A stretch of DNA of 64,000 nt from Chloroflexota bacterium (lineage in GTDB: Bacteria; Chloroflexota; Anaerolineae; JACRMK01): assembly GCA_016235055.1 (NCBI GenBank), contig JACRMK010000046.1:34958-98957 (forward strand), written 5' to 3'. A program made the position numbers and the translations under genes. Below the pieces are notes generated by a model, which was not told the DNA's origin, searched no databases, and saw only the letters and a program-made list of their open reading frames with translations. Positions 2,038 to 62,459 of this stretch are shown piece after piece (the first letter of the stretch is position 1; each line of letters opens with the position of its first letter).

Positions 2038-2688
2038 CTACTCCGCCATCACCCGCCAGCCGTGCTCGCGCGCCGCGGCCGCCAGCGGCTCGTCGGGCGC
2101 GACCGCCACCGGCGCGGCGCTCATTTGCATCATCGGCACATCGGCGGCGGTGTCGCCGTACGCCGCGACCAGCGCATCGCCGTTCAGCGCGGTGCGCAGG
2201 CGCTCGGCCTTCAGCGGGCCGACCGTCATCGGCCCGGTCAGCCGGCCGGTGGCGCGGCCATCGACCATCTCGAAGCCGGTCGCAATCGCCTCGGCCCCGA
2301 GCCGGCGGGCGAACGCTTCCAGCACGGGCAAGTACGAGCCGGAGGCCAGCACGACCCGGCGGCCTTCTTTCCGGTGCGCCTCCAGTTCGGCGATGACGGC
2401 CGCGCGCCGTTTCGGCCACAGTTCGTTCTCGACGACCCACTCGCCCATTTCGGCCAACTGCTCCGGCGTGCTGCCCTTAAACAGCCCAACCAGATCGATC
2501 AACCAACTCTGGCCGAACTTGTCGCGATCCATCCAGCCTAGTCGGACAGCGACGATGCCCGGCACGCGCGTGAAGAAGAAGCGGCGGTACGCGCCGGACT
2601 GGCCGCTCGCTTCCAGATAGCGGCCGATGCCGCGCCAGGTGGCGCCGCTCGACAGCGTCCCTTCCAGGTCCGATGCAACGACGGGCAT
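2038..2688 (-). CDS. HAD-superfamily hydrolase (HAD-IB / phosphoserine-phosphatase-like)
   Basis: 216 aa; N-terminal DLEGTL is HAD motif I (DxDGT-like); GAGGA upstream of start. Confidence 0.8.
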   Translation of the reverse strand: MPVVASDLEGTLSSGATWRGIGRYLEASGQSGAYRRFFFTRVPGIVAVRLGWMDRDKFGQSWLIDLVGLFKGSTPEQLAEMGEWVVENELWPKRRAAVIAELEAHRKEGRRVVLASGSYLPVLEAFARRLGAEAIATGFEMVDGRATGRLTGPMTVGPLKAERLRTALNGDALVAAYGDTAADVPMMQMSAAPVAVAPDEPLAAAAREHGWRVMAE

Positions 2689-2776
2689 GTGTTATGTCCT
2701 CGATCGCGTCGTGATGAATTGCCGATCCGCGAATAACGCGAATCGACGATACTTCTTCAAGTAGAGCGCGGTCTCA

Positions 2777-2920
2777 TGGTTGTCATGCTGAGCGCGAAGG
2801 TCGAACTATTGGCCTATCGTGCGCTTCGCGCGCGAAGCGCCTGAAATGCAGCACTTCAGATGTCTCGCGCGAGCGACGAGCCAAAGGAAAGAAGTCTTGC
2901 CTTCGCGCTCAACATGACAA
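2777..2920. repeat. MITE-like element, family 1 (terminal inverted repeats GTTGTCATGYTGAGCGCGAAGG)
   Basis: 22-bp terminal inverted repeats with one mismatch flank about 100 bp containing internal hairpins; related copies at about 17279-17415 and 28809-28950. Confidence 0.6.
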
Positions 2921-6355: not shown

Positions 6356-6523
6356 CCACGGCATGACGGCGTGACAGGATGACAGGCTGGCCGGGTGACA
6401 CGGTGACACGATGAAGAGATGACGGGATAACACGATGACAAGGGGCAGCTTGGGGCGCACTATGAGCGCAGATTCGCGTTATTCGCGGACAGGTTGTTTT
6501 TAAGAAGTCCGACGGTTTGACGG

Positions 6524-6529
6524 TATAAT
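6524..6529 (+). promoter_or_regulatory. -10 hexamer TATAAT 7 nt upstream of epimerase ATG (leaderless-type promoter)
   Basis: GGTATAATGCCGCGTATG; no Shine-Dalgarno between box and ATG at 6537. Confidence 0.5.
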
Positions 6530-6536
6530 GCCGCGT

Positions 6537-7487
6537 ATGTCCTTATGTCTCGTAACCGGCGCGGCTGGCTTTGTCGGCTCGACGCTATCTGAGCGGCTGC
6601 TTACCGACGGCCACACCGTCGTCGGCATCGATTGCTTCACTGACTATTACGCACGCGACGTCAAAGAGAGCAACCTTGCGACGCTGCGCCGACACCCGCG
6701 TTTCACGCTGATCGAGCGAAACCTCGCGACCGGCGACCTCTCGGACGTCATCGACGGCGTTGATGCCGTGTTTCACCAGGCCGGCCAGCCCGGCGTCCTG
6801 CCCTCCTGGGGCCGGCTGTTCGACCAGTACGTGACCAACAACATCATCGCGACACAGCGCTTGCTCGAAGCGCTCAAGGGGCGGCCGCTGCAGCGCTTCG
6901 TTTTCGCCTCGTCGTCCACCGTGTACGGCGAAACGCCCGACCTGCCGGTGCGCGAGACCTCCCTGCCGCGCCCGATCGTGCCGTACGGCGTCACCAAGCT
7001 GGCCGCCGAGCACCTGGTCAATATGTACCACCTCAACTTCGGGCTGCCGGCCGTGATCCTGCGCTACTTCAGCGTGTACGGCCCGCGCCAGCGGCCCGAC
7101 ATGGCGCTCCACAAGTTCATCAATGCCATCGCGCGCGGCGAGACGATCCAGATTCGCGGCGACGGCGAGCAGACGCGCGATGCGACGTACGTGGACGACA
7201 TCGTCGAGGCGAACGTGCTGGCACTGCGCGCCGGCGACGGCGTGCTCGGCAGCGTGTTCAACATCGGCGGCGGCGAAAGCGCCAGCGTGAACCAGATCAT
7301 TCAGCACATGGAGCAGATCATCGAGCGCGCCGCCGTGACGACCCATGTGCCGACGCAGCCCGGTGAACTGCGCCACCAGTGGGCCAATACGAGCCGCGCG
7401 CACGACGCGCTCGGCTTTGCGCCGCACATGCCGTTCAGTCAGGGCTTGCGCCACCAGATCGAATGGCAAATCGGCGGCGGCCAATGA
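6537..7487 (+). CDS. NAD-dependent epimerase/dehydratase (SDR family, UDP-sugar 4-epimerase-like)
   Basis: N-terminal TGAAGFVGS Rossmann motif, YxxxK catalytic pair (YGVTK); start taken at second ATG (MSLCLV). Confidence 0.9.
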   Translation: MSLCLVTGAAGFVGSTLSERLLTDGHTVVGIDCFTDYYARDVKESNLATLRRHPRFTLIERNLATGDLSDVIDGVDAVFHQAGQPGVLPSWGRLFDQYVTNNIIATQRLLEALKGRPLQRFVFASSSTVYGETPDLPVRETSLPRPIVPYGVTKLAAEHLVNMYHLNFGLPAVILRYFSVYGPRQRPDMALHKFINAIARGETIQIRGDGEQTRDATYVDDIVEANVLALRAGDGVLGSVFNIGGGESASVNQIIQHMEQIIERAAVTTHVPTQPGELRHQWANTSRAHDALGFAPHMPFSQGLRHQIEWQIGGGQ

Positions 7488-11941: not shown

Positions 11942-12192
11942 AGGTATATTCAGTTCTGGGGCGCAACCAATACGGAGCAAGAACATAGTAGCTCGTTATG
12001 TCCGCGTAGGGGCGCATGGCCATGCGCCCGCATCCAGAGGTGCTGCCCCCTGGATTCCCGCGGTGCTCTGCGGCCTTCATCCTGTGCCCGCGCCTGCGGC
12101 GCGGAGCGGGGCGAAGCCCCGCTGCACAGGACATCGCGCAGAGCGTTAACCGCCCGCTGGCCCGAAGCCAGCGGGAAACGCGCGGGAGTGAC
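11942..12192. repeat. Composite intergenic repeat, family 4 (GGTATATTCAGTTCTGGGGCGCAACC module plus GTAGGGGCGC hairpins)
   Basis: Modules recur at about 31255-31370 (inverted) and 55057-55220; several perfect short palindromes. Confidence 0.55.
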
Positions 12193-16957: not shown

Positions 16958-17278
16958 GAACTACCGCCTTTCTGGAATCTCAGAACTGCGGCCAGTATAG
17001 CGAGTACCGATGCGTCGTTCTATCCGATTCTTGCGGTTCAAACTGCCGCACAAGCAGGGGACGGCAAAAAGGAATCGTCCGCGCTAGAGCATCTTGCAGA
17101 AACATCGGGCACGCCATGCGGTTCGCCGGGTAGGGGCAGGTCTTTGACCTGCCCAGCGGACAGGCCAAAGGCCTGTCCCTACAGGCGGCGTGCAGCACCG
17201 TATCGGATCATGTCGCAAACCGCTATAAACGCTGGCGACGCTTATGCTTATCCGGGCAGAGCGTGTCCGCAGGAACAT

Positions 17279-17415
17279 GTCATGTTGAGCGCGGCGGCCA
17301 AGTCATCATTAGGCAGACAATCACGCACGCGAAGCATCTATGCCGAAGCATTTCAGGTGCTTCGCGCGCGTGACAGGCCTACCCACAGCGGCCTTGCCTT
17401 CGCGCTGCTCATGAC
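17279..17415. repeat. MITE-like element, family 1 copy
   Basis: Terminal inverted repeats GTCATGTTGAGCGCGG / CCTTCGCGCTGCTCATGAC; internal GAAGCATTTCAGGTGCTTC hairpin as in the copy at 2777. Confidence 0.55.
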
Positions 17416-20223: not shown

Positions 20224-20233
20224 AGCTGTTATC

Positions 20234-20452
20234 GGGGATCGGGTTTCAGGTGTCAGGGATCAGGGGATAGGGTATAGGGCATAGTGAGAGCGTCTTGCGC
20301 CGGCCGTCGACATCCGCTTCGCGCAGCAACGCCTTGCTCCGATCCCGAATACCCGATGCCCGGACTCTATGCCTTGTTCCCCGAAACCTGACCCCTGATT
20401 CTCTATTCCCTATCCCCTGATCCCTGACACCCGATCCCTGATACCCGACCCC
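20234..20452. repeat. Large imperfect palindrome in divergent promoter region
   Basis: Left arm GTGTCAGGGATCAGGGGATAGGG is mirrored as CCCTATCCCCTGATCCCTGACAC about 140 bp away; arms extend to about 50-85 bp with mismatches. Confidence 0.6.
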
Positions 20453-20500
20453 CGCTCAACGCGTTTGATTATACCGCCGATATTGTGGTATTGTGATGAT

Positions 20501-21724
20501 ATGCCGCGCGCTGAGCCGCGGCTTCCGAAAATGTCAGACCTCCGAATCAAAGGGCTTGTCGCCGCGATGAACCGCGCCCGCGAGGGGTGGAGTCACGGCG
20601 TGCCCGTCGCCGAAGCCGACGATTTCCGCCGCATGGTGATGGATACGGTCGCGCAAGTCGAAGCGATCTGCCGGCGCAACCAGGTCAAGCCGTCGCAACT
20701 GCCCGGCCCCTCGTACCGCGCGTACCGCTACCTCAAGTCGCTCGATCTGGCCGCGCTGCCGGTCTGCGACGAGTCGGCGGCGCCGTCGCGCGCCGTGCGC
20801 ATCAAGAACGCCATCGCGACCGCGAACCGCATCCGCGCCGACCTGCTGGCGCTGCCCGGCCGCGCCGAACCGGCCGCCCTGCAGCATGGCCCCGCGGCCG
20901 CGCTGCTGAAGCGCATCCAGTCGCAGTCGCGCGCGATCGAGGAGATCTGCGCGCGGCTGTCGAGCTCGCCGGCGCGCCTGCCGCTGCCGTCGCGCCGCGC
21001 GTACCAGTGGCTCAAGTTCCTCAGCGCGACCGACAATCTGCTGTCGCACTGGGCGACGCTGGCGCTGGTGCGCGAGATCATCGGCAGCCTGCGCTGGATC
21101 AAGCAGCGCTGGCCCGGCTACGCCTTCAGCTTCGAAATCTACCCGAGCGACTATCTGTACCGCGCCCAGGTCAATCACACGCAGGTGCGCATCGTCGCCG
21201 CGCCCGGTTTCGTCGGCGCGCCGCCCGATGCGCTCGAAGCGTTGGTGCGCGCGGCGGTCAGCCGCCGGCAGGCGAGCGCAACCAACGCGGTCAAGCGCTA
21301 CATCAACGGCGAGGACTTCGCCGAGGCGTCGCTGGCGTTCGAGTTGTGCCTGGAGCGCCCCGACGGCGGCCTGAAGGGGCGCCACTACGACCTGGCCGAG
21401 GTGTTCGCGCGCGTCAACGCCGCGTACTTCGACGGGTGCATGCCGCGCCCGCGCCTGCAGTGGAGCCGCACCGTCACCGAGCGCACGATGGGCCACTATC
21501 AGGTCGAGAGCGACACGGTGATGATCAGCATCGCGCTCGACGACCATCGCGTGCCGCAGTACGCCATCGACTTCGTGATGTACCACGAACTGCTGCACAA
21601 GCAACTGGGCGTGCAGTTCGTGGACGGGCGGCACTACGCCCACACGCGCGCCTTCCGCGAGGCCGAGAAGCGCTTCAAGCGCTACGACGACGCCGAGGCG
21701 TTCCTGCAGTCGCTGGCGCGCTGA
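20501..21724 (+). CDS. Putative zinc metallohydrolase with C-terminal DUF45/SprT-like HExxH domain and N-terminal internally repeated domain
   Basis: C-terminus ...ISIALDDHRVPQYAIDFVMYHELLHKQ...HTRAF resembles YgjP/DUF45 metal-dependent hydrolases; two about 33-aa N-terminal repeats (...EAICRRNQ...PSYRAYRYLK / ...EEICARLS...PSRRAYQWLK). Confidence 0.65.
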   Translation: MPRAEPRLPKMSDLRIKGLVAAMNRAREGWSHGVPVAEADDFRRMVMDTVAQVEAICRRNQVKPSQLPGPSYRAYRYLKSLDLAALPVCDESAAPSRAVRIKNAIATANRIRADLLALPGRAEPAALQHGPAAALLKRIQSQSRAIEEICARLSSSPARLPLPSRRAYQWLKFLSATDNLLSHWATLALVREIIGSLRWIKQRWPGYAFSFEIYPSDYLYRAQVNHTQVRIVAAPGFVGAPPDALEALVRAAVSRRQASATNAVKRYINGEDFAEASLAFELCLERPDGGLKGRHYDLAEVFARVNAAYFDGCMPRPRLQWSRTVTERTMGHYQVESDTVMISIALDDHRVPQYAIDFVMYHELLHKQLGVQFVDGRHYAHTRAFREAEKRFKRYDDAEAFLQSLAR

Positions 21725-21739
21725 CCGGAAAGCCCACCG

Positions 21740-21955
21740 CAGAGCACGCAAAGAGCGCAAAGAAAAGCTTTGTTGACCGTGAATAACGCGAATTGGCGCT
21801 AGTCGAACGCTAACCGCAGAGAACGCAGAGGAAAACAAGACCAACCGCAAAGCACGCAAAGAGCGCAAAGGAGAACCCTGCTTTCGATTGGCGTCGATTC
21901 GCGTTATTCGCGGATAGAGAGCTTTTCTTTGCGGTCTTTGCGCCCTTTGCGGTTC
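21740..21955. repeat. MITE-like element, family 2 (nested inverted repeats; inner GAATAACGCGAAT / ATTCGCGTTATTC)
   Basis: Outer inverted repeat CGCAAAGAGCGCAAAG / CTTTGCGCCCTTTGCG and inner CCGCGAATAACGCGAAT-type termini; related copy at 56831-56974 and solo ends near 2712, 6465, 24808. Confidence 0.6.
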
Positions 21956-22026
21956 AATGTTCTTGGTGTCCATTCGTGTTCCTTCGTGGACAAAGGTGAT
22001 GTTGAATCTTCCCTGGGGATTTTCTA

Positions 22027-24765: not shown

Positions 24766-24839
24766 AACTTTTCACCGCAGAGAGCGCAGCGAGAACCTTT
24801 GTATCCGCGAATAACGCGAATCGGCGCGAATAGAACAAC

Positions 24840-24995
24840 TGCGTCCCCCAATGAACGCAAAGAGCGCAGAGGTTACTCCCTGCGCTCTCGTCATCTCTTC
24901 ATCCAGTTATCTTGTCATCTCTTCATCCAGTCATCTTGTCATCTCTTCACCTTGTCACCTTGTCACCTTGTCATCTTGTCATCCCGTCATCTTTC
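24840..24995. repeat. Short tandem repeats (CTTGTCAYC units) next to solo family-2 repeat end
   Basis: TCATCTCTTCATCCAG... then CACCTTGTCACCTTGTCACCTTGTCATCTTGTCATCC; similar GTGACAGGATGACAGG tract in inverted orientation near 6380-6450. Confidence 0.55.
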
Positions 24996-25479
24996 AGATG
25001 ACCGGCTTCTCCTTGTCGGTCAGGTTGACGACGACGGCGCGGCTCGCCTTGACCAGGTCGGCCGGCGCAATCAGGATCTCCTCGCCCCACTGGCCGGTGC
25101 CGACGCCGAGCACGCTCTCAATCAGCAGTGACGCTTCGAGGAACGAGCGGAAGCCCGGCCTCTGCCAGTGAAACGGCGGGATCGAGCCGATCTCGTAGCC
25201 GGTCGTCGTTTTGACCGCTTCCGGGCTGGCGAGCTTGATGTTGCGCGAGTTGAGCACCTTCTTCAGGTGCCCGGAGATCGCGCTCTGGTCGCCGCCGAGC
25301 ATGATCAGTGCCCGCTCGCCGCGGTCGTTCTCGAAGATCAGCGTCTTGACCATCTGCCGCTCGTTGAAGCCGAGCGCGCGCGCCACCGAGGCCGCGCCTT
25401 TCTCGATGTCGGTCGGGAATGAGCGCCGCTCGTATGGAATATTCTGCTGGTCGAGGTAGTCGTGGGATGGCAGGTTCAT
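24994..25479 (-). CDS. ybaK: YbaK/ProX-type aminoacyl-tRNA deacylase (Cys-tRNA(Pro) editing domain)
   Basis: 161 aa from internal ATG with AGGAGA upstream; central G-rich loop and K...GG editing-domain pattern (MVKTLIFENDRGERALIMLGGD). Confidence 0.75.
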   Translation of the reverse strand: MNLPSHDYLDQQNIPYERRSFPTDIEKGAASVARALGFNERQMVKTLIFENDRGERALIMLGGDQSAISGHLKKVLNSRNIKLASPEAVKTTTGYEIGSIPPFHWQRPGFRSFLEASLLIESVLGVGTGQWGEEILIAPADLVKASRAVVVNLTDKEKPVI

Positions 25480-28808: not shown

Positions 28809-28950
28809 GGTCATCCTGAGCGCGAAAGCGGGGCGTATGTCCTTTGGCTCGTTAGGCGCGCGAAGGATCTGAACTGCCGCCTCTCAGATTCTTCGCGCGC
28901 GAGGCGTGTTGCACGCCATCGGTCTTGCCGCCGCGCTCCGAATGACAGCG
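28809..28950. repeat. MITE-like element, family 1 copy
   Basis: Termini GGTCATCCTGAGCGCGAAAG / CCGCGCTCCGAATGACAGCG with internal CGCGCGAAGG...CTTCGCGCGCG hairpin. Confidence 0.5.
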
Positions 28951-28999
28951 GACCAGGGTATGCTCAGCGCAAAACCGCTGTACCTGCGCTTGATTTGCG

Positions 29000-31037: not shown

Positions 31038-31254
31038 ACGACGCCCGTCGGCGCAATCGAAATTATACCCGCGCTATGGATGACGGGCAACTGGCGACCC
31101 GGCAACGGGTATACCGACAAACTGTCGGGGACTCAATCGGTCGTCATGCCGGAATGGCGGATTGGTCAGCCGTGCGGCCCCGACACTTTTGCGGTATACC
31201 CTTTCAATTGGGTGCATTTCGGATTGGGGCCGGGCGCATGCAACTCAACGAGGC

Positions 31255-31370
31255 GTCACTCCCGCGGAAGCGGGAGTCCAGGGACAACACCGCTGGATGC
31301 CCGCGCTGGTCGGCGGCGAGCCACCGTGGTCTCATACCGTATTGGTTGCGCCCCGGAACTGAAAATACCC
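31255..31370. repeat. Intergenic repeat, family 4 partial copy
   Basis: CGTATTGGTTGCGCCCCGGAACTGAAAATACC is the reverse complement of the module at 11942; CACTCCCGCGGAAGCGGGAGTC hairpin. Confidence 0.5.
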
Positions 31371-41469: not shown

Positions 41470-41568
41470 GTCATGCCGGCATGTAGTTAGCCGGCATCCA
41501 CGCCAGCATCTGGCGCGCATGCTGGCCCGTGTTACGCCGGCGTGGATTCCGGCCTTCGCCGGAATGAC
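41470..41568. repeat. MITE-like element, family 3 copy
   Basis: GTCATGCCGGCATGTAGTTAGCCGGCAT ... GCCGGAATGAC; close match to 25588-25687. Confidence 0.6.
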
Positions 41569-41792
41569 GGCTTGGATATGCGGTGCATCAGTTTCTGCAC
41601 TCACGCATCCGACGCTGCGGGATGTAATTCTTGCAACGACAGTCTCGCTGAGTGGTGGTTATGCGTATCGGACATCTCTGTTACTGAGTTGTCGAAATCT
41701 AGCATTCATCCGATATTCGCAATATACACTGTATTTCCGGGCGCTTCGTACTCATCGCATGCGCGCTATTTGCTGAAAAGTCAGTAAGCGTT

Positions 41793-46259: not shown

Positions 46260-47024
46260 ATGCGCAAAGAGATAGCAACCGTCGTGTTGGGATTAACAAT
46301 GATACTCGCGGCTTGCGGGCCGACCCCCACACCCGCCGCCATGATGCAAGCCGCGATGCCAACGCCTGACGCAATGATGGCCAAGCCGACGCCCGATGCG
46401 ATGATGGCCAAGCCGACGCCCGATGCCATGATGGCCAAGCCGACGCCCGACGCCATGATGGCGCGCCCAACACCCGACGCGATGATGGCGCACCCAACAC
46501 CCGACGCCATGATGGCGCACCCAACACCCGACGCGATGATGGCGCATTCGACCCCGGATGCCATGATGCAAGCCCCGGCCTGGTTTGGCGCATCGCTGAC
46601 CGATGTGCGCACCGGTCAGACGTTCTCGCTCAACGGCTTCAAAGGCAAGGTGGTGCTGGTCGAAACGATGGCGCAATGGTGTCCGAGTTGCCGCACGCAG
46701 CAGACGCAGGTGAAAGACCTGCGCGCGATGTTTGCCGGGCGCGATGATCTGGTGACGATCGCGCTCGACGTGGATCCGAATGAGCAGGCCGCCGACCTGA
46801 AGAAATACGTGCAGGCCAACGGCTTCGAAGGGTTCTACGGCATCGCGCCCGCCGCCGTGGCGCGCGAGATCGGCAATCTTTATGGCGCGCAATTCCTGAA
46901 TCCGCCGTCCACGCCGATCCTGATTGTGGACCGCCACGGCCTGGCGCATCCCCTGCCGTTCGGCATCAAGAGCGCACGCGATCTGGCGAGCGCCATCGAG
47001 CCGTACCTCAAGGACGCCATGTAA
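46260..47024 (+). CDS. TlpA/ResA-like thioredoxin-fold lipoprotein with tandem nonapeptide linker
   Basis: Lipobox ILAAC; seven to eight repeats of A[KRH]PTPDAMM; redox motif WCPSC; AAGGAG upstream. Confidence 0.85.
   Translation: MRKEIATVVLGLTMILAACGPTPTPAAMMQAAMPTPDAMMAKPTPDAMMAKPTPDAMMAKPTPDAMMARPTPDAMMAHPTPDAMMAHPTPDAMMAHSTPDAMMQAPAWFGASLTDVRTGQTFSLNGFKGKVVLVETMAQWCPSCRTQQTQVKDLRAMFAGRDDLVTIALDVDPNEQAADLKKYVQANGFEGFYGIAPAAVAREIGNLYGAQFLNPPSTPILIVDRHGLAHPLPFGIKSARDLASAIEPYLKDAM
46341..46560 (+). repeat. 27-bp tandem repeat array inside the tlpA-like gene (coding, in frame)
   Basis: GCCAAGCCGACGCCCGATGCGATGATG-type unit repeated about 8 times with third-position and K/R/H variation. Confidence 0.8.
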
Positions 47025-55056: not shown

Positions 55057-55220
55057 GGTGCATTTCACTTCTGGGGCGGCTAATGGGCCAACAAGCCGTC
55101 ATGCCGTTGCCCGCTGGCCCCTTGCCAGCGGGCGCTTGACGGTCAGCGGCGAGAAGCCGCTGACCAGCGCGGGCATCCAGAGGTGTTGCCCCTGGACTCC
55201 CGCTTTCGCGGGAGTGACGA
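55057..55220. repeat. Composite intergenic repeat, family 4 copy
   Basis: GGTGCATTTCACTTCTGGGGCGGC module; GCCCGCTGGCCCCTTGCCAGCGGGC and TCCCGCTTTCGCGGGA hairpins matching modules at 12030-12192. Confidence 0.55.
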
Positions 55221-56690: not shown

Positions 56691-56830
56691 TGCGGGTGCG
56701 TAGGGGCGCGTTGCACGCGTCCCGCAACGGGGCACATGCAATGTGCCCCTACGTTATCCGCAGGTGGCAGATGTCGTTCTGCGAAACGATCATCCGCTGC
56801 CCGCCCAGCACCTCCGCCGCATAGACTCAT

Positions 56831-56974
56831 CCACGAAGGGACACGAAGGAACACCAAGAACACCTTTATCCGCGAATAACGCGAATGAACGCGAATAGAG
56901 CCCACAAACTCCAGAACTGATTGGCCTCGATTCGCGTTATTCGCGGATCGCTTTTTATTTGTGTTCCTTCGTGG
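56831..56974. repeat. MITE-like element, family 2 copy (nested inverted repeats)
   Basis: Outer CCACGAAGGGACACGAAGGAACAC / GTGTTCCTTCGTGG; inner CCGCGAATAACGCGAAT / ATTCGCGTTATTCGCGG. Confidence 0.6.
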
Positions 56975-58347: not shown

Positions 58348-58686
58348 ATGAACATAACGGCGCAAGGAAGCCGCACGGCGTCAACACGTGGACGGTCCGA
58401 TCTGAACCGATTCAGACGAATCCTGAAGCGGCACATGCCTGATTTGGAGAACCGCTACAACGTCCGGTCGCTAGGCATCTTCGGATCGTATGTTAGGGGC
58501 GAACAGCGGAAGCGTAGTGATCTGGACGTGCTGGTCGAATTCGCCAAATCGCCCGACCTGTTCGAGTTCACGGCATTGGCCGACGACCTCGAGCACCTGT
58601 TGGGCGTTAAGGTGGATTTGGTCAGCCGGAACGGCCTGCAAGGCCGCTTGGCAGAGCGCATCTTAAGCGAGGTTGTGCCGGTATGA
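58348..58686 (+). CDS. Nucleotidyltransferase MntA-like antitoxin
   Basis: LGIFGSYVRGE...SDLDVLV motif; AAGGAG upstream. Confidence 0.8.
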   Translation: MNITAQGSRTASTRGRSDLNRFRRILKRHMPDLENRYNVRSLGIFGSYVRGEQRKRSDLDVLVEFAKSPDLFEFTALADDLEHLLGVKVDLVSRNGLQGRLAERILSEVVPV

Positions 58687-59069
58687 GTGCCGCGCGCCGC
58701 CATCTCGACTACCTGCGGGACATCGCCGACATGATGGGCACCGTTGTCGAGTTGACCGATGCGATGACGTTTGAGCAGTTTGCGACTGACAAACGCACGG
58801 CTTTGGCCGTCAGAAAGGCAATCGAGATCATCGGCGAAGCCGCCAAGCATCTGCCACCGTCCTTCCGCGATCGGCACGATGCAATCCCCTGGAAACAAAT
58901 GGCTGGCATGCGCGATCGGTTAATCCACGCTTACTGGGGCATCAACATTGACATTTTGTGGGCAACGGCAACCGAAGTGATTCCCAGCCTGCGCCCGCGC
59001 ATCGCACTAGTCCTGGAACAGGAGCTGGCACGCGAACAGCGCGCGCGGCCGGCGCCAGATGATACGTGA
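58683..59069 (+). CDS. HepT-like (DUF86) HEPN toxin
   Basis: R-x4-H-x-Y HEPN motif (RDRLIHAY); ATGA overlap with mntA-like gene. Confidence 0.8.
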   Translation: MSAARRHLDYLRDIADMMGTVVELTDAMTFEQFATDKRTALAVRKAIEIIGEAAKHLPPSFRDRHDAIPWKQMAGMRDRLIHAYWGINIDILWATATEVIPSLRPRIALVLEQELAREQRARPAPDDT

Positions 59070-59186
59070 GTCACATCCGTTCCAGCCGGTCTTATTTATC
59101 TCGCCTCGCTTGACTTTCCCCCGCCAAATCGAGTACGCTTGCAACGCAACACCGTCCACAACCATGACCTGGTAAGGAGGCATCCC

Positions 59187-60785
59187 ATGACCACGTTGTA
59201 TGCCGAGAAGCAGGCTGCGTTCGATTGGATCGAAGCCAACCGAGCGCGCCTTTCCGGCTTCTGCGAGCAGATCTGGAACTATGCGGAGACGGCGTTCCGC
59301 GAGTACAAGTCCGCGCGCGCGTATTGCGATCTGCTGCGCGCCGAAGGGTTCACCGTCGAGGAAGGCTCCGCCGAGATGCCGACGGCGTTCGTCGCGACGT
59401 ACGGCAACGGCGGGCCGGTGCTGGCGACGTTCTCCGAATACGACGCCGTGCCGGAGAACTCGCAGGAGCGCGTGCCGTACCCGTCGCCGCGCGCCGGCCT
59501 GAACCGCTGGGCGGCCGGGCACACCGACCCGCACTCGTCGCTCGGCACGAGCGCGCTGATCGGTGCGCTGGCCGCCAAGGCGATGATGGTCAAATACGGG
59601 CTGCACGGCACGCTCAAGCTGTTCGGCGAGCCGGCGGAGAAGGTCTGCGGTTCCAAGCCGGTACACGCCGCCAAGGGGTATTACGACGGGCTCGACGCGG
59701 CGGTCGTCTATCACCCCAATGCCAGCAACTCCGTAGTGTGGGAAACACACAGCGGCTCGTACTGGAGCGCGGCGTTCGTCTTTGAGTGCATCGATCCGGA
59801 GGAGTGGATCGACCAGCGCCTGCTGCCGAACACGAGCACCTCGCACGCGGCGGCGCGCTGTCCGGCGGCGATCGACGCGCTGTGCCTGATGTATACGCTG
59901 ACCAAGTACAGCAAGGAGGCGATGTTCCCGCACACCGGCACCTGGACGCTCAACGAGAACATCATGGTTGGCGGGCAGTGCACCTCGGACAACCTGCCGC
60001 CGCGCCTGGCGGTCATCCAGTACTCGTGGCGCTCGCCGACGCTCGACATCCAGGAGCGCGTATTCCAGGTGCTGGCGCAGAACGCGCGGCAGGTCGCCGG
60101 CGCGACCGGCTGCGTCGCCTCGGTGCGCTGGATCACGAAGACGCGCGTCGGCCTGCCGAACCTGGCGATCTCCGACCTGGCCTACCGCAACCTGGAACTG
60201 GTCGGCGCGCCCCAGTTTGGAGACGAGGCGCGCACCTTCGCCCGCGCGATCCAGAAGAATCTCGGCTTCGAGCCGATGGACGACCCGTTCATTGCCGACA
60301 ACCAGACGCTGACGCCGCCGCCCGAACTGGAAGCGCGCGTGCGCCAGGGCCTGCCGCCGTGGCAGCTCAACTTCACGTCGGATGATTATGTGGAATACAC
60401 CTGGCACGCGCCGACCGTGCGGCTCTACACGGCGCGGCCGCGCCTGAAGGCGCCCAAGCCCGGTTACACGTACCCGGCATGGGTGAACAACGCGATGGGC
60501 GGCGTGCCGGCCTGCATCGATCCCGGCATGTTCGTCGCGGGCAAGACGATCGCCGCGACGATGCTCGATCTGCTCAAGTCCCCGGACGAGCTCGCCAAAG
60601 CGCAAGCCGAGTTCCGCGAGCGGACGGGTGGCGGCGTGGGCGGCAGCCAGTGGGTCGCGCCGCTGTTGGCGCGCGATTTCCCGCCGCCGGTCGAATTACG
60701 CTGGCCGGAGTACGTGCAGACGCCGCGCGGCGAGGAGTGGTGGGTGCCGACGGTGACGCACGAATCGGCCTACGTGAAGCTGTAG
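59187..60785 (+). CDS. M20-family amidohydrolase (aminobenzoyl-glutamate-utilization AbgB-like)
   Basis: 532 aa from internal ATG with AAGGAGG upstream; metal-ligand regions (GHTDPHS, EPAEK) typical of M20 peptidases. Confidence 0.8.
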   Translation: MTTLYAEKQAAFDWIEANRARLSGFCEQIWNYAETAFREYKSARAYCDLLRAEGFTVEEGSAEMPTAFVATYGNGGPVLATFSEYDAVPENSQERVPYPSPRAGLNRWAAGHTDPHSSLGTSALIGALAAKAMMVKYGLHGTLKLFGEPAEKVCGSKPVHAAKGYYDGLDAAVVYHPNASNSVVWETHSGSYWSAAFVFECIDPEEWIDQRLLPNTSTSHAAARCPAAIDALCLMYTLTKYSKEAMFPHTGTWTLNENIMVGGQCTSDNLPPRLAVIQYSWRSPTLDIQERVFQVLAQNARQVAGATGCVASVRWITKTRVGLPNLAISDLAYRNLELVGAPQFGDEARTFARAIQKNLGFEPMDDPFIADNQTLTPPPELEARVRQGLPPWQLNFTSDDYVEYTWHAPTVRLYTARPRLKAPKPGYTYPAWVNNAMGGVPACIDPGMFVAGKTIAATMLDLLKSPDELAKAQAEFRERTGGGVGGSQWVAPLLARDFPPPVELRWPEYVQTPRGEEWWVPTVTHESAYVKL

Positions 60786-60835
60786 CCAAACGCGACGCAC
60801 AAACGGAAGCGGGACAGGCATGATGCCTGTCCCGC
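60705..60835 (+). repeat. Direct repeat, left copy (3' end of M20 gene plus terminator)
   Basis: 131 bp; identical to 62092-62222 except 2 substitutions. Confidence 0.85.
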
Positions 60836-60841
60836 TTTTTT
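60811..60841 (+). terminator. Rho-independent terminator of M20 gene
   Basis: GGGACAGGC-atga-GCCTGTCCC followed by GCTTTTTTG. Confidence 0.7.
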
Positions 60842-60945
60842 GTTGTGCGTGCTATCCCTCAGCGCGCCCGGCTGGACGAAACTGGCTTGAATCCCCGTTT
60901 GCGGCAATCCGCACGAGGAATGTCAAACAGCATCAGTACGGAGAA

Positions 60946-61080
60946 AATGGGGGTACGACGGCGTGTGCCCATTGCCAACGCAGTGGGCAACAAGTCAAGG
61001 ACGGAATCAATGCGTTTGGCAGCCTGCAGTATCGATGCAAAGGCTGTTGCCCTTCTGAACTTTTTCACTTAACACGGTAG
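60946..61080 (+). pseudogene. Possible IS1595-family transposase N-terminal zinc-ribbon remnant
   Basis: ...NGGTTACAHCQRSGQQVKDGINAFGSLQYRCKGCCPSELFHLTR then stop; pattern NG..C.HC...(13)...YRCK.C...F resembles the Zn_Tnp_IS1595 ribbon; no DDE domain follows. Confidence 0.3.
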
Positions 61081-61086
61081 CAATTG

Positions 61087-61743
61087 TCATCTTCCAAGCA
61101 ATTCTGCATTCGACTGGAATAGAGGAATCTGTGTACTTTCAGTATCATCGCAGTCCGGTGAGAACTTGTATTTCACGTTGAAACTCATTTCTGAATAGCT
61201 GTAGGCTTGATACCCTTTAAAATGGGAATTGGAAAGCTGGGTAAAGCGATTCTCAATAGGTTTCCATACGGCGGTGCTCCAATATGAAACCGGATATCGT
61301 ATGCACGACCTCTCGTGAGCCCCACCATCTTGAACATCCAAATCGACAAAAACCAAGAATCGATCTGAACCGAACTTCACATACTCGACCAAGTAGTAGC
61401 CCTTGCCATGATACCAAACGTCTCGCCTGACCCCGACGTTTATCGAACCAAGCGCTTGTGCCTTGGTGATAAACGCCGCGACCCCTGAGGCATCTTGCAC
61501 GGCCGCAGTCGCCCAGAAGGTATTTTCGCGTTGAGCTTTACGCTGTGACTCAATTGTGCTGACAGCTCGATCATCAAGTGTACCATATGAAATCGCATTC
61601 GACGCGCCTTGGTAAACTGCGACGACGGCAGAGAATCCGACGAGGATGATCAGGAGGCCGATTAATCCCCTCAGCAAATTGCCAAAACATCCCGACTCGA
61701 TCAAAATACCCAAGCCAACAGCTCGAAAGAAGTTATCGCTCAT
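61087..61743 (-). CDS. Hypothetical membrane-anchored protein (cargo gene B)
   Basis: 218-aa ORF in AT-richer DNA where stop-free frames of this length are unlikely by chance; two N-terminal hydrophobic helices; ATGA overlap with upstream ORF. Confidence 0.55.
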   Translation of the reverse strand: MSDNFFRAVGLGILIESGCFGNLLRGLIGLLIILVGFSAVVAVYQGASNAISYGTLDDRAVSTIESQRKAQRENTFWATAAVQDASGVAAFITKAQALGSINVGVRRDVWYHGKGYYLVEYVKFGSDRFLVFVDLDVQDGGAHERSCIRYPVSYWSTAVWKPIENRFTQLSNSHFKGYQAYSYSEMSFNVKYKFSPDCDDTESTQIPLFQSNAELLGR

Positions 61744-62054
61744 ATTCCGCCTGCGTCTTTCTCTTCGGTGACAACTGGAGGAAAACAGCGCTTTGCACTA
61801 GAAAGCATGTCTCGCCGTGTGTACCGCATGTATCCAATCTTCAAGTATATGCACTTTGCATTGTGGCGACCATCATGATAGCGGTGTGAGTTTCCAGGCT
61901 TGGGCAATGGCGAACGAAGATGGAAATAGCATCGAACTTCGCTCGCGTATTTTCTTCTGAACTCAGCCCACGGTTGGTTTGTCCCATAAACACAGTCATT
62001 ATACAACTTTGTGCTGCGTTTCTGGTTTATCGGCAATGGGTGTAGCAACGACAT
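61740..62054 (-). CDS. Hypothetical Cys/His-rich small protein (cargo gene A)
   Basis: 104 aa; 4 Cys and 6 His could form a metal site; no obvious RBS. Confidence 0.45.
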   Translation of the reverse strand: MSLLHPLPINQKRSTKLYNDCVYGTNQPWAEFRRKYASEVRCYFHLRSPLPKPGNSHRYHDGRHNAKCIYLKIGYMRYTRRDMLSSAKRCFPPVVTEEKDAGGI

Positions 62055-62091
62055 ACACTTGATTCCATCGATACCGTGCGGTTTGCTCTGG

Positions 62092-62222
62092 CCGGAATAC
62101 GTGCAGACGCCGCGCGGCGAGGAGTGGTGGGTGCCGACGGTGACGCACGAATCGGCCTACGTGAAGCTGTAGCCAAACGCGACGCACAAACGGAAGCGGG
62201 ACAGGCATCATGCCTGTCCCGC
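62092..62222 (+). repeat. Direct repeat, right copy (duplicate of M20 3' end plus terminator hairpin)
   Basis: Same 131 bp as 60705-60835 with G-to-A at position 6 and loop ATGA-to-ATCA; followed by TTCATTTTC. Confidence 0.85.
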
Positions 62223-62459
62223 TTCATTTTCACTCGGGCGCGGTATTCTGTTCGGACCCTATCTGGCTGCGTCGGGATCGCGTAGGGGCGCACCGACGTG
62301 TGCGCCCGCCTGGCACGCTGCGGGCCGACACGCAGGTCGGCCCCTACCACCGGCGCTTTGCGGGTGGCTTTGCCCAATTCGCACGCATGTTCTAAGTTTG
62401 TGCTATAATAGCGACGGGCACAGAACATTAGTTCTCACTACCGCTATAGGAGAATCGCG

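What the first reader, a model, noticed from the sequence alone, without database searches (positions are those of the whole stretch)
21740..21955. MITE-like family 2 with nested inverted repeats (CCGCGAATAACGCGAAT core)
Two complete copies (21740-21955 and 56831-56974) and three solo ends (near 2712, 6465 and 24808) contain the inner inverted repeat CCGCGAATAACGCGAAT / ATTCGCGTTATTCGCGG, wrapped in a second inverted repeat that differs between copies. The solo ends suggest recombination between copies has happened.
Basis: seen in the sequence. Interest (0 to 1): 0.4.

Follow-up and report, generated by a model that had tools for sequence, protein, structure and literature searches.

The report
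Palindromic repeats tied to GxxExxY nucleases
The repeats are real hairpin-forming elements built from short 'CGCGAAT' words, and the same arms occur in at least five bacterial phyla, where they tightly wrap genes of an uncharacterised nuclease family, so the window seems to hold gene-less copies of a widespread selfish DNA element for which I found no description.

Summary
The 17-mer CCGCGAATAACGCGAAT occurs 7 times in the window (0.29 expected): two inverted pairs and three single arms, all intergenic. Each pair sits inside an outer inverted repeat made of different words.

It is not a genome-specific MITE. Each arm is about 32 nt, made of three CGCGAAT words spaced 9-10 nt apart, and nothing else is conserved. 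The same palindrome occurs in Acidobacteriota, Chloroflexota, Planctomycetota, Verrucomicrobiota and Lentisphaerae.

In four related Pyrinomonadaceae genomes it occupies different slots of one conserved operon, which shows gain and loss.

The new result is that the same arms enclose genes for the GxxExxY protein (TIGR04256/PF13366, a PD-(D/E)XK nuclease fold of unknown function). In 80 metagenome loci found through the protein alone, 48 of 75 testable genes are flanked by such inverted arms, against 4% of control ORFs. Word "dialects" co-vary between the two arms and follow protein relatedness.

Gene-less hairpins far outnumber the genes.

Best reading: the window copies are non-autonomous members of this cassette family. 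That the nuclease mobilises them is inference. No GxxExxY gene was found in the window or in the Chloroflexota loci. No matching Rfam family or paper was found.

The parts
21736..21769 (.). Copy A, outer left arm: three CGCAGAG/CGCAAAG words
   Evidence: Inverted repeat I5, 88% complementary to 21920-21953; word array; pairs in the fold.
21777..21810 (.). Copy A, inner left arm: CCGTGAATAACGCGAAT plus a degenerate third unit (TGGCGCTAGTCGAAC)
   Evidence: (I6, 82% complementary to 21880-21913).
21811..21879 (.). Copy A, loop of the inner hairpin. It holds further unpaired word arrays: CGCAGAG x2 at about 21813-21832, and CGCAAAG x3 at 21843-21879. The latter is an alternative partner for 21918-21954.
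   Evidence: (I4).
21880..21913 (.). Copy A, inner right arm: ...ATTGGCGTCGATTCGCGTTATTCGCGG
21920..21953 (.). Copy A, outer right arm: CTTTGCG words
   Evidence: (I5).
21958..21990 (.). Single array of CCTTCGTG-type words (reverse complement of the CACGAAGG words that form the outer arms of copy B), abutting copy A
   Evidence: tandem repeat 21958-21988.
56831..56863 (.). Copy B, outer left arm: CACGAAGG words x3
56868..56896 (.). Copy B, inner left arm: ATCCGCGAATAACGCGAATGAACGCGAAT (three units)
   Evidence: (I8, 86% complementary).
56897..56919 (.). Copy B, loop (23 nt)
56920..56948 (.). Copy B, inner right arm. On its own it also forms a 9-bp mini-hairpin followed by a T-run (56928-56950).
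56961..56974 (.). Copy B, outer right arm: GTGTTCCTTCGTGG
2725..2755 (+). Single left arm (third unit degenerate), 38 nt upstream of the start of the HAD-hydrolase gene 2038-2688(-). It is followed by an unrelated 146-nt TIR element.
6460..6490 (-). Single right arm between divergent genes, 39 nt upstream of the epimerase gene 6528-7487(+). It is preceded by a TGACAGG octamer array at 6358-6440.
24803..24834 (+). Single left arm with all three units (CCGCGAATAACGCGAATCGGCGCGAATAG), lying in the loop of an outer CGCAGAG hairpin (24780-24789 / 24879-24889), between convergent genes

Best explanation
The window copies are gene-less (non-autonomous) members of a cross-phylum family of palindromic 'word-array' elements. 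Each arm is two to four copies of a 7-nt word of the type C-R-C-G-R-A-W (here CGCGAAT) spaced 9-10 nt apart, and the two arms are inverted. Full-length members carry one small gene in the loop. That gene encodes a GxxExxY protein (TIGR04256 / Pfam PDDEXK_3), which has an intact D...ExK nuclease motif.

Shown: the shared arm architecture; the tight wrapping of GxxExxY genes; the concerted change of both arms; gain and loss at orthologous intergenic sites; and the large excess of gene-less hairpins.

Inferred: the elements are copied at the DNA level into intergenic DNA, sometimes into the loops of resident hairpins. This is initiated by the GxxExxY nuclease acting in trans on the phased words, in a homing-like or transposition-like way. 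The gene-less copies then persist as nearly neutral passengers. As a by-product they put very stable hairpins into 3' UTRs and intercistronic RNA.
For: (1) Family membership. The 17-mer plus a third unit and a palindromic partner recur in at least 120 genome stretches. 78 of about 128 arms have a partner arm with 4 or fewer mismatches within 300 nt, where chance gives about 0.4%. One window arm is 29/32 identical to the arm that wraps the gene in L001.
(2) Wrapping. 4 of the 5 GxxExxY genes present in those loci lie between three-unit arms, with the start 5-12 nt and the stop 7-20 nt from the arms.
(3) Independent sample found by the protein alone. 48 of 75 genes have a flanking inverted repeat scoring 14 or more, against 4.3% of 209 other ORFs. 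63 of 73 have a word array of 3 or more units on at least one side, 39 on both sides, and 31 of those 39 carry the same word in inverted orientation.
(4) The dialect follows the protein. The nearest protein neighbour shares the dialect in 30 of 51 cases, against 19% by chance. At an orthologous site the arms changed together, CGCGAAT versus CGCGAAA.
(5) Turnover. In four Pyrinomonadaceae genomes (TruA 67-83% identical), the truA-DUF952-uppS operon has elements in different slots, and the empty slots are 0-58 nt long.
(6) Nuclease. TIGR04256 scores 130 bits. D70 and E80-x-K82 are invariant. The AF2 model (pLDDT 78) is nearest to Cas4, Hjc resolvases, splicing endonucleases and a homing endonuclease.
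(7) Excess of gene-less copies within one isolate. Gemmatirosa has at least 67 hairpins against 2 genes on its two megaplasmids.
Against: No GxxExxY gene is present in the 64-kb window or in about 126 kb of Chloroflexota loci. The link for this phylum therefore rests on arm identity only. No biochemical or in vivo evidence shows that GxxExxY binds or cuts these arms. No target-site duplication or exact element boundary could be defined. About a third of the GxxExxY genes show no clear flanking repeat. Some genes sit between two complete hairpins rather than inside one (L057, L149, L165, Gemmatirosa). The dialect-protein correlation could reflect shared ancestry rather than recognition. Structural matches are weak (TM 0.35-0.5). 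The remnant of a GxxExxY C-terminus in one gene-less loop is only suggestive (E 0.007, about 0.16 expected).
Confidence: 0.6

Rival explanations
1. It is a classical MITE: an internally deleted DDE-type insertion sequence, mobilised by a transposase that recognises the terminal inverted repeats.
For: The family has inverted ends, is small, non-coding, multi-copy and intergenic, and shows presence/absence polymorphism in related genomes.
Against: No conserved body exists beyond about 32-nt arms. No target-site duplication was seen. The arms are tandem word arrays rather than a unique TIR. All-against-all clustering of ORFs within 2.5 kb of 120 loci found no recurrent transposase, only ABC transporters, kinases and two-component genes. 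The one gene repeatedly found between the arms is a PD-(D/E)XK-family gene.
Confidence: 0.1
2. It is a REP/REPIN-type element mobilised by a RAYT (IS200-like Y1 HUH transposase) acting on single-stranded hairpins.
For: It has the inverted-doublet architecture, high copy number and extragenic location. The window also carries GTAG-tagged REPIN-like doublets. RAYT-like genes do occur in the sampled genomes (L031, L098).
Against: The arms lack the GTAG/CGTC tag that defines the two REP super-families (PMC3733652). The RAYT-like genes seen are flanked by other repeats (GGGGCGAGGCAT..., TCTATTTGCGGAAAAGC...), not by CGCGAAT arms.
Confidence: 0.1
3. It is a host-selected RNA element, acting as a transcription terminator, mRNA 3'-end stabiliser or RNase III site. 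On this reading the gene association is secondary: the arms regulate or insulate GxxExxY expression, as the stems of 23S rRNA intervening sequences do.
For: The predicted RNA hairpins are very stable. Many copies lie directly after stop codons and inside operons. In wrapped genes the Shine-Dalgarno-like AGGAAG/AAGAAG lies in the inner end of the stem. The architecture equals that of the Coxiella IVS, which has a 28-bp stem with an ORF in the loop and is cut by RNase III (PMC4990558).
Against: No U-tract terminator was found at copy A, and only an arm-internal mini-hairpin at copy B. Copies also lie between divergent genes (13 of 84 classified) and upstream of starts in the window (2727, 6472). 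On the mRNA-sense strand, G:U-type mismatches (17) are not favoured over A:C-type (31). Occupancy of orthologous sites is not conserved. No Rfam family matches.
Confidence: 0.15
4. The phased words are binding arrays for a DNA-binding protein (iteron-like, centromere-like or nucleoid-associated), and the sequence is conserved because that protein is conserved.
For: The 9-10 bp spacing puts successive words on one face of the helix. There are three words per arm in inverted arrays. The same word occurs across phyla.
Against: No candidate protein emerged other than GxxExxY itself. Many dialects coexist in one genome, which fits poorly with a single host factor. Site turnover is high.
Confidence: 0.05

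Closest known systems
REP / REPIN elements with their RAYT transposase (Pseudomonas, E. coli; PMC3116915, PMC3733652)
   Same: Both are short extragenic palindromic repeats in high copy, often as inverted doublets forming long hairpins. In both, non-autonomous copies vastly outnumber a single-gene 'parent' that is flanked by the same repeats.
   Different: There is no GTAG/CGTC tag. The arms are tandem 7-nt words at 9-10 nt spacing rather than a single imperfect palindrome. The associated gene has a PD-(D/E)XK fold (GxxExxY), not a Y1 HUH transposase. The same arm sequence is shared across phyla.
23S rRNA intervening sequences (Coxiella, Leptospira, Salmonella; PMC4990558)
   Same: Both have a roughly 28-32-bp terminal inverted-repeat stem enclosing a 400-450-nt loop with one small ORF of unknown function. 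Both have a sporadic, horizontally patchy distribution, and gene-less forms exist.
   Different: IVSs sit in helix 25/45 of 23S rRNA, whereas these elements sit between protein-coding genes. The Coxiella IVS ORF is S23p, not GxxExxY. From memory, S23p belongs to the four-helix-bundle family PF05635. RNase III processing is shown for IVSs and is untested here.
Bacterial MITEs (Correia/NEMIS, RUP, Nezha, ERIC)
   Same: They are small, non-coding, have inverted ends, are intergenic and multi-copy, are co-transcribed with neighbours, and vary in presence between relatives.
   Different: No conserved body, no demonstrable target duplication and no DDE-type parent were found. The arms are internally repetitive.
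Cyanobacterial STRR heptamer arrays and small dispersed repeats (Mazel et al. 1990; Elhai et al. 2008; both recalled from memory)
   Same: Both are short words (about 7 nt) repeated in tandem in intergenic DNA, with many word types per genome and small repeats nested in one another. The window also has true heptamer/octamer arrays at 20232-20448 and 24886-24996.
   Different: STRRs are contiguous heptamers (period 7) described in cyanobacteria. Here the period is 9-10, the arrays come as inverted pairs, and they have a gene partner.
PD-(D/E)XK homing endonucleases (I-Ssp6803I from memory; I-Bth0305I, PDB 3r3p)
   Same: They are small PD-(D/E)XK proteins encoded inside the DNA element that they propagate, and they recognise (pseudo)palindromic targets. 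I-Bth0305I appears among the structural neighbours.
   Different: Those enzymes are intron- or intein-associated. The structural similarity here is weak (E 0.07), and no activity is known for GxxExxY.

Membership tests
Word-array palindromes that wrap GxxExxY genes (family defined here) | Arm of at least 2-3 tandem C-R-C-G-R-A-W words at 9-10 nt spacing | tested here: met
   All 7 window arms contain CGCGAAT-AA-CGCGAAT plus a third unit. The same pattern appears in the arms around GxxExxY genes.
Word-array palindromes that wrap GxxExxY genes (family defined here) | Second arm with the same word in inverted orientation | tested here: met
   Met by two of five window loci, 21777/21897 and 56870/56930. 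The other three are single arms.
Word-array palindromes that wrap GxxExxY genes (family defined here) | GxxExxY ORF in the loop (full-length form) | tested here: not met
   The window loops are 23 and 69 nt. tblastn and an HMM of 75 family members find no GxxExxY gene in the window. The window copies are therefore gene-less.
Classical MITE | Terminal inverted repeats | tested here: met
   Arms are 82-86% complementary.
Classical MITE | Target-site duplication flanking each copy | tested here: inconclusive
   No common direct repeat flanks the window copies. The filled and empty sites available are too diverged (TruA 67-83% identical) to define boundaries.
Classical MITE | Parent IS with the same ends encoding a transposase | tested here: not met
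   No recurrent transposase lies near 120 loci. The only recurrent enclosed gene is GxxExxY.
REP/REPIN-RAYT | Unpaired GTAG or CGTC tag at one end of each unit (PMC3733652) | tested here: not met
   Arms begin (A)TCCGCG or GCCCGCG. Separate GTAG-tagged doublets exist in the window.
REP/REPIN-RAYT | RAYT gene flanked by the repeats | tested here: not met
   RAYT-like ORFs in L031 and L098 are flanked by unrelated repeats. The whole genome of the window organism was not available.
23S rRNA intervening sequence | Insertion in helix 25 or 45 of 23S rRNA and excision by RNase III | tested here: not met
   Rfam finds only a tRNA in the window, and all copies lie between protein-coding genes. RNase III cleavage cannot be tested with these tools.
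Intrinsic (Rho-independent) terminator | G+C-rich stem followed directly by a U-tract | tested here: not met
   No site was found at copy A. One arm-internal site was found at copy B, 56928-56950. In other phyla the consensus stem is followed by GCAAAA.
Cyanobacterial STRR | Contiguous tandem heptamers (period 7) | tested here: not met
   The period of the CGCGAAT arrays is 9-10. Other arrays in the window have period 7-8.
Curated RNA family (Rfam 15) | Score at or above a family's gathering threshold | tested here: not met
   No hit in the window apart from a tRNA, and no hit in 10 loci with canonical copies.

The most novel reading that the evidence does not exclude
GxxExxY proteins are the nucleases of a previously unrecognised class of selfish element. 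This family had at least 7,900 significant hits among the 8,000 candidates scored in each of two searches, and no function is known for it. On this reading each protein recognises its own 'dialect' of phased 7-nt words and propagates a palindromic cassette (arm-gene-arm), plus a much larger population of gene-less hairpins, through the intergenic DNA of Acidobacteriota, Chloroflexota, Planctomycetota, Verrucomicrobiota, Gemmatimonadota and others. 23S rRNA intervening sequences would then be the rRNA-resident analogue of the same strategy.
Probability: 0.35. Interest if true: 0.85.

Novelty: new variant of a known kind. Interest (0 to 1): 0.62.

Why it matters
If the link holds, it does three things. 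First, it assigns a testable role to GxxExxY / PDDEXK_3, a very large orphan protein family listed as 'unknown' in the PD-(D/E)XK survey (PMC3424549). The role would be propagation or targeting of palindromic repeats. Second, it identifies a repeat family whose arm sequence is nearly identical across phyla that diverged very early. This is unusual for REP- or MITE-like DNA and implies either recognition by a conserved, co-transferred protein or frequent inter-phylum transfer. Third, it explains a practical nuisance: these hairpins break short-read assemblies and seed spurious small ORFs such as '...IRVIRG...'. For the window itself, the elements place hairpins of -64 to -119 kcal/mol in a 3' UTR or intercistronic spacer and between convergent genes. 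There they probably affect mRNA ends, as REPs do in E. coli.

Tried and rejected
1. Presence/absence in close relatives of the window genome was not possible. The flanking gene 20465-21724 has no relative above 56% identity. The three nearest contigs are not syntenic and carry no such repeats. The neighbouring protein is known only from a 1.2-kb Logan contig.
2. Rfam gave no family for the window or for canonical copies.
3. Literature: no paper holds the 16-mer. The only papers mentioning GxxExxY / PDDEXK_3 / PF13366 give no function and no repeat association. Further searches supplied comparators only.
4. A recurrent neighbouring transposase was not found.
5. Phage carriage: 12 exact hits in IMG/VR, almost all coding or chance, and no hairpins.
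6. Defence-system role: no PADLOC hit for three GxxExxY proteins.
7. RNA-level selection: the G:U versus A:C mismatch test gave no bias towards the sense strand.
8. A direct Chloroflexota link failed. The 'ATCCGCC' flavour (L151) turned out to be Chthoniobacterales, and no GxxExxY gene is in the Chloroflexota loci.
9. Nesting as a general rule: only 2 of 23 long loops elsewhere hold another inverted repeat. Nesting is therefore a feature of this genome rather than of the family.
10. The raw count of 17-mer hits (at least 120) is not in itself significant, because about 70 are expected by chance in 596 Gb on both strands. About 17 hits inside ORFs without a partner arm are probably chance.
11. 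The two single arms at 2727(+) and 6472(-) are correctly oriented to bracket a 3.7-kb segment holding an amidohydrolase, a metallophosphoesterase and a DUF5678-like ORF. They share nothing beyond the 17-mer, so I treat this as coincidence.

Full report
OBSERVATION. The 17-mer CCGCGAATAACGCGAAT occurs seven times in the window with at most one mismatch. The positions are 2727+, 6472-, 21777+ (1 mismatch), 21897-, 24805+, 56870+ and 56930-. The chance expectation is 0.29, and none of 100 shuffles reached seven. The copy-specific outer inverted repeats are also real. CGCAGAG/CGCAAAG words at 21736-21769 / 21920-21953 surround the first pair. CACGAAGG words at 56831-56863 / 56961-56974 surround the second. 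Both composites fold far better than shuffled sequence: -119 kcal/mol with z -8.4, and -64 kcal/mol with z -8.1. A GC3-based gene call places all five loci in intergenic DNA. One lies between tandem genes, two between convergent genes, one between divergent genes, and one upstream of a gene.

ANATOMY. The core is itself repetitive. It is CGCGAAT repeated at 9-10 nt spacing, with three units in the arms at 24805 and 56870. Aligning the seven arms gives one conserved block of about 32 nt, (T)ATCCGCGAATAACGCGAATCGRCGCSAATMGAA, and nothing conserved outside it. There is thus no conserved element body. The outer repeats are built in the same way from other words of the same general shape (CGCAAAG, CGCAGAG, CACGAAGG). 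The single arm at 24805 lies in the loop of an outer CGCAGAG hairpin. The window therefore holds modular hairpins of several word 'dialects', nested in one another.

THE FAMILY IS NOT GENOME-SPECIFIC. A random 17-mer is expected about 70 times in that much DNA, so the count alone means little, and about 17 partner-less hits inside ORFs are probably chance. The rest are clearly not chance. 78 of about 128 arms have an inverted partner with 4 or fewer mismatches within 300 nt, where about 0.4% is expected. Spacers are mostly 20-55 nt. Of the 80 loci whose titles were listed, I count about 37 Acidobacteriota (mainly Pyrinomonadaceae/Blastocatellia), 18 Chloroflexota, 12 Planctomycetota, 5 Verrucomicrobiota and 2 Lentisphaerae. 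The consensus is a near-perfect palindrome: AAGAATTTTGC-CCGCGAATAACGCGAAT-nnn-CGCGAATAAGAA-loop-TTCTTATTCGCG-nnn-ATTCGCGTTATTCGCGG-GCAAAATTCTT. The closing bases are phylum-specific: ATCCGCG in Chloroflexota, as in the window, and GCCCGCG elsewhere. The window genome is a 65% G+C Chloroflexota (Anaerolineae-like) organism without close relatives in the databases. No Rfam family matches the window or canonical copies, and no paper in the library contains the sequence.

TURNOVER. Four Pyrinomonadaceae genomes (L034, L037, L038, L081) share a truA-DUF952-uppS operon, with TruA 67-83% identical. The truA|DUF952 spacer holds an element in three of them and 58 nt of unrelated sequence in the fourth. 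The DUF952|uppS spacer is filled only in L081. Three further slots are filled in one genome each, and empty slots are 0-58 nt long. At the truA site, L081 carries a CGCGAAA variant in both arms. L038 carries a CGCGAAT hairpin followed by a single right arm of the CGCGAAA type. These elements therefore come and go on the timescale of species divergence. The two arms change together. Single arms can arise when one element replaces part of another. It could not be run on the window genome itself, because the nearest homologues of the flanking gene are 56% identical or less and not syntenic.

THE GENE PARTNER. In L001 two exact arms lie 485 nt apart and enclose a 146-codon gene. Its start is 12 nt from the left arm and its stop 7 nt from the right arm. 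The product is a GxxExxY protein (TIGR04256, 130 bits; Pfam PDDEXK_3/PF13366). Of the five GxxExxY genes present in the 120 loci, four are enclosed in this way by three-unit arms of CGCGAAT, CGCGAAA or CACGAAT words. The fifth lies between two hairpins.

To test this without circularity, I fetched 80 metagenome loci using the protein alone. 48 of the 75 genes with enough flank have a flanking inverted repeat scoring 14 or more, and the arms usually lie 0-15 nt from the start and stop codons. Only 4.3% of 209 other ORFs in the same loci reach that score. When tandem word arrays are called independently on each side, 63 of 73 genes have one on at least one side and 39 on both. In 31 of those 39 the 3' array is the reverse complement of the 5' word. 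The dialects include CACGAAA, CGCGAAT, CACGGAA, CGCGAAA, CGCTAAA, CGCCAAA, CGCGGAT, CGCGAAG and CACTGAA. A gene's nearest protein relative shares its dialect in 30 of 51 cases, against 19% by chance. The cassette in L001, L034 and L081 sits at an orthologous site (73% DNA identity across cassette and flanks), and its arms have switched dialect on both sides.

Cultured organisms show the same pattern. In Treponema saccharophilum pTS1 the annotated GxxExxY gene is wrapped by a 23-nt inverted repeat. In Gemmatirosa kalamazoonensis the gene lies between two complete hairpins of GGACTGAAGAA words. That hairpin occurs at least 40 (capped) plus 27 times on the two megaplasmids, against two gene copies. 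Gene-less hairpins thus greatly outnumber gene-bearing ones, both there and in the 17-mer-seeded sample, where 2 of 78 paired elements carry the gene.

THE PROTEIN. D70 and E80-x-K82 are invariant in two alignments, which is the PD-(D/E)XK signature. An AlphaFold model (pLDDT 78) has the expected alpha/beta core. Its weak best matches in the PDB are Cas4 SSO0001 (E 4.6e-4, TM 0.46), tRNA-splicing endonucleases, archaeal Hjc resolvases and the homing endonuclease I-Bth0305I. There is no sequence match to any solved structure and no hit to defence-system models. The PD-(D/E)XK survey lists the family as of unknown function with 'multiple transfers' (PMC3424549). The family is very large: at least 7,900 significant hits among the 8,000 candidates scored, in each of two searches.

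INTERPRETATION. The window's CGCGAAT hairpins are best read as gene-less members of this cassette family. One window arm matches the arm that wraps the L001 gene at 29 of 32 positions. What is shown is the shared architecture, the tight gene-arm association, the concerted arm evolution, the turnover, and the excess of gene-less copies. What is inferred is the mechanism. My preferred version is that the small nuclease recognises the phased words, whose 9-10 bp spacing puts them on one face of the helix. It then cuts in or near the palindrome, and repair from another copy spreads arms with or without the gene. That would account for genes, and in this genome other hairpins, sitting in loops.

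Several points weigh against over-reading this. No GxxExxY gene is in the window or in about 126 kb of Chloroflexota loci. About a third of the genes lack clear arms. Some genes are flanked by whole hairpins rather than enclosed. No boundaries or target duplications could be defined. The dialect-protein correlation may only reflect common descent. One gene-less loop (L053) retains a weak remnant of the protein's C-terminus, which is only suggestive.

RIVALS. A DDE-type MITE is unlikely, because there is no body, no parent IS and no recurrent transposase. A RAYT-driven REPIN is unlikely, because there is no GTAG/CGTC tag and the RAYT-like genes seen carry other repeats. A host RNA function (terminator, stabiliser or RNase III site) remains possible as a secondary effect. 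The architecture matches 23S rRNA intervening sequences, which have a 28-bp stem with an ORF in the loop and are cut by RNase III (PMC4990558), and the ribosome-binding site of wrapped genes lies in the stem. However, U-tracts are missing, site occupancy is not conserved, copies occur in divergent promoter regions, and stem mismatches show no G:U bias on the sense strand (17 versus 31). The elements are essentially absent from viral contigs.

VERDICT. The element is a non-autonomous palindromic repeat of a cross-phylum family whose full-length form carries a GxxExxY nuclease-family gene. I could find no description of this association. Confidence is 0.6 in the family assignment and non-autonomous reading, and about 0.35 that GxxExxY is the mobilising enzyme.

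Noticed in passing
window 12006-12030, 17133-17185, 56700-56752, 62283-62350: GTAG-tagged REP/REPIN-like palindromic doublets (GTAGGGGCGC...GCCCCTAC). They form a separate repeat family of the classical REP type, and one lies 80 nt upstream of copy B.
   Followed up: partly
window 2775-2920, 17275-17400, 28825-28960: Three copies of a roughly 146-nt element with terminal inverted repeats GTCATGCTGAGCGCGAAGG...CCTTCGCGCTCAACATGAC and a central CTTCGCGCGCGA palindrome. Similar 'gtcattctgagc...gaagaatctc' / 'gtcattgcgag...ctcgcaatgac' sequences appear in loci of other phyla (L078, L093, L026, L019), sometimes nested in CGCGAAT hairpin loops.
   Followed up: no
window 20232-20282 / 20398-20448: A 51-nt-arm inverted repeat (84% complementary) built of GGGATCAG/GGTATAG-type heptamers, lying between divergent genes. 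It is an STRR-like word-array hairpin of yet another dialect.
   Followed up: partly
window 24886-24996 and 6358-6440: Long octamer arrays: GTCATCTT/GTCACCTT (13 units) and its complement TGACAGGA/GATGACAA. Each abuts a single CGCGAAT arm.
   Followed up: no
window 60786-62230: A 1.3-1.4 kb low-G+C island (43-54% against 65%) with two ORFs that have no Pfam hit (61087-61743 and 61740-62054, both on the minus strand). It is bracketed by a roughly 50-nt direct repeat that includes the 3' end and terminator hairpin of gene 59139-60785. It looks like a recent insertion.
   Followed up: partly
window 58348-59069: An adjacent nucleotidyltransferase (MNT) and HepT-like RNase gene pair, which is a type VII toxin-antitoxin arrangement.
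   Followed up: partly
window 46359-46568: A 27-nt (54-nt) in-frame tandem repeat, about 8 copies at 87% identity, in the N-terminal part of a thioredoxin/AhpC-like protein (46260-47024). It gives a histidine/aspartate-rich repeat region.
   Followed up: no
window 12050-12180, 31240-31300, 41470-41570, 55090-55220: Another dispersed repeat containing 'ccagaggtgctgccccctggattcccgcg' and 'gtcatgccgg...ccggaatgac' motifs in four long intergenic regions.
   Followed up: no
L024, L027, L048, L096 (Chloroflexota MAG JANMVQ01): In this genome the CGCTAAT/CGCGAAT hairpin lies inside a larger, nearly identical repeated unit bounded by GTAACTATTCAG...CTGAATAGTTAC. This is a composite element carrying the hairpin.
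   Followed up: no
L220 3263-3972 (Gemmatirosa kalamazoonensis plasmid 1, NZ_CP007129.1:1092262-1092971): The sequence AAACACGTACGTGGAGCC follows both hairpins that flank the GxxExxY gene. It could be a target duplication or part of a hairpin-plus-gene cassette unit, reminiscent of integron cassette/attC organisation.
   Followed up: no
L033 7345-7821: A different word-array inverted repeat (ACGATAGGAATGAAATGGATGATAGGAACG...) encloses a 63-codon ORF (MRLSEIERVIRTQRIIVPP...). Word-array arms may therefore wrap small genes other than GxxExxY.
   Followed up: no
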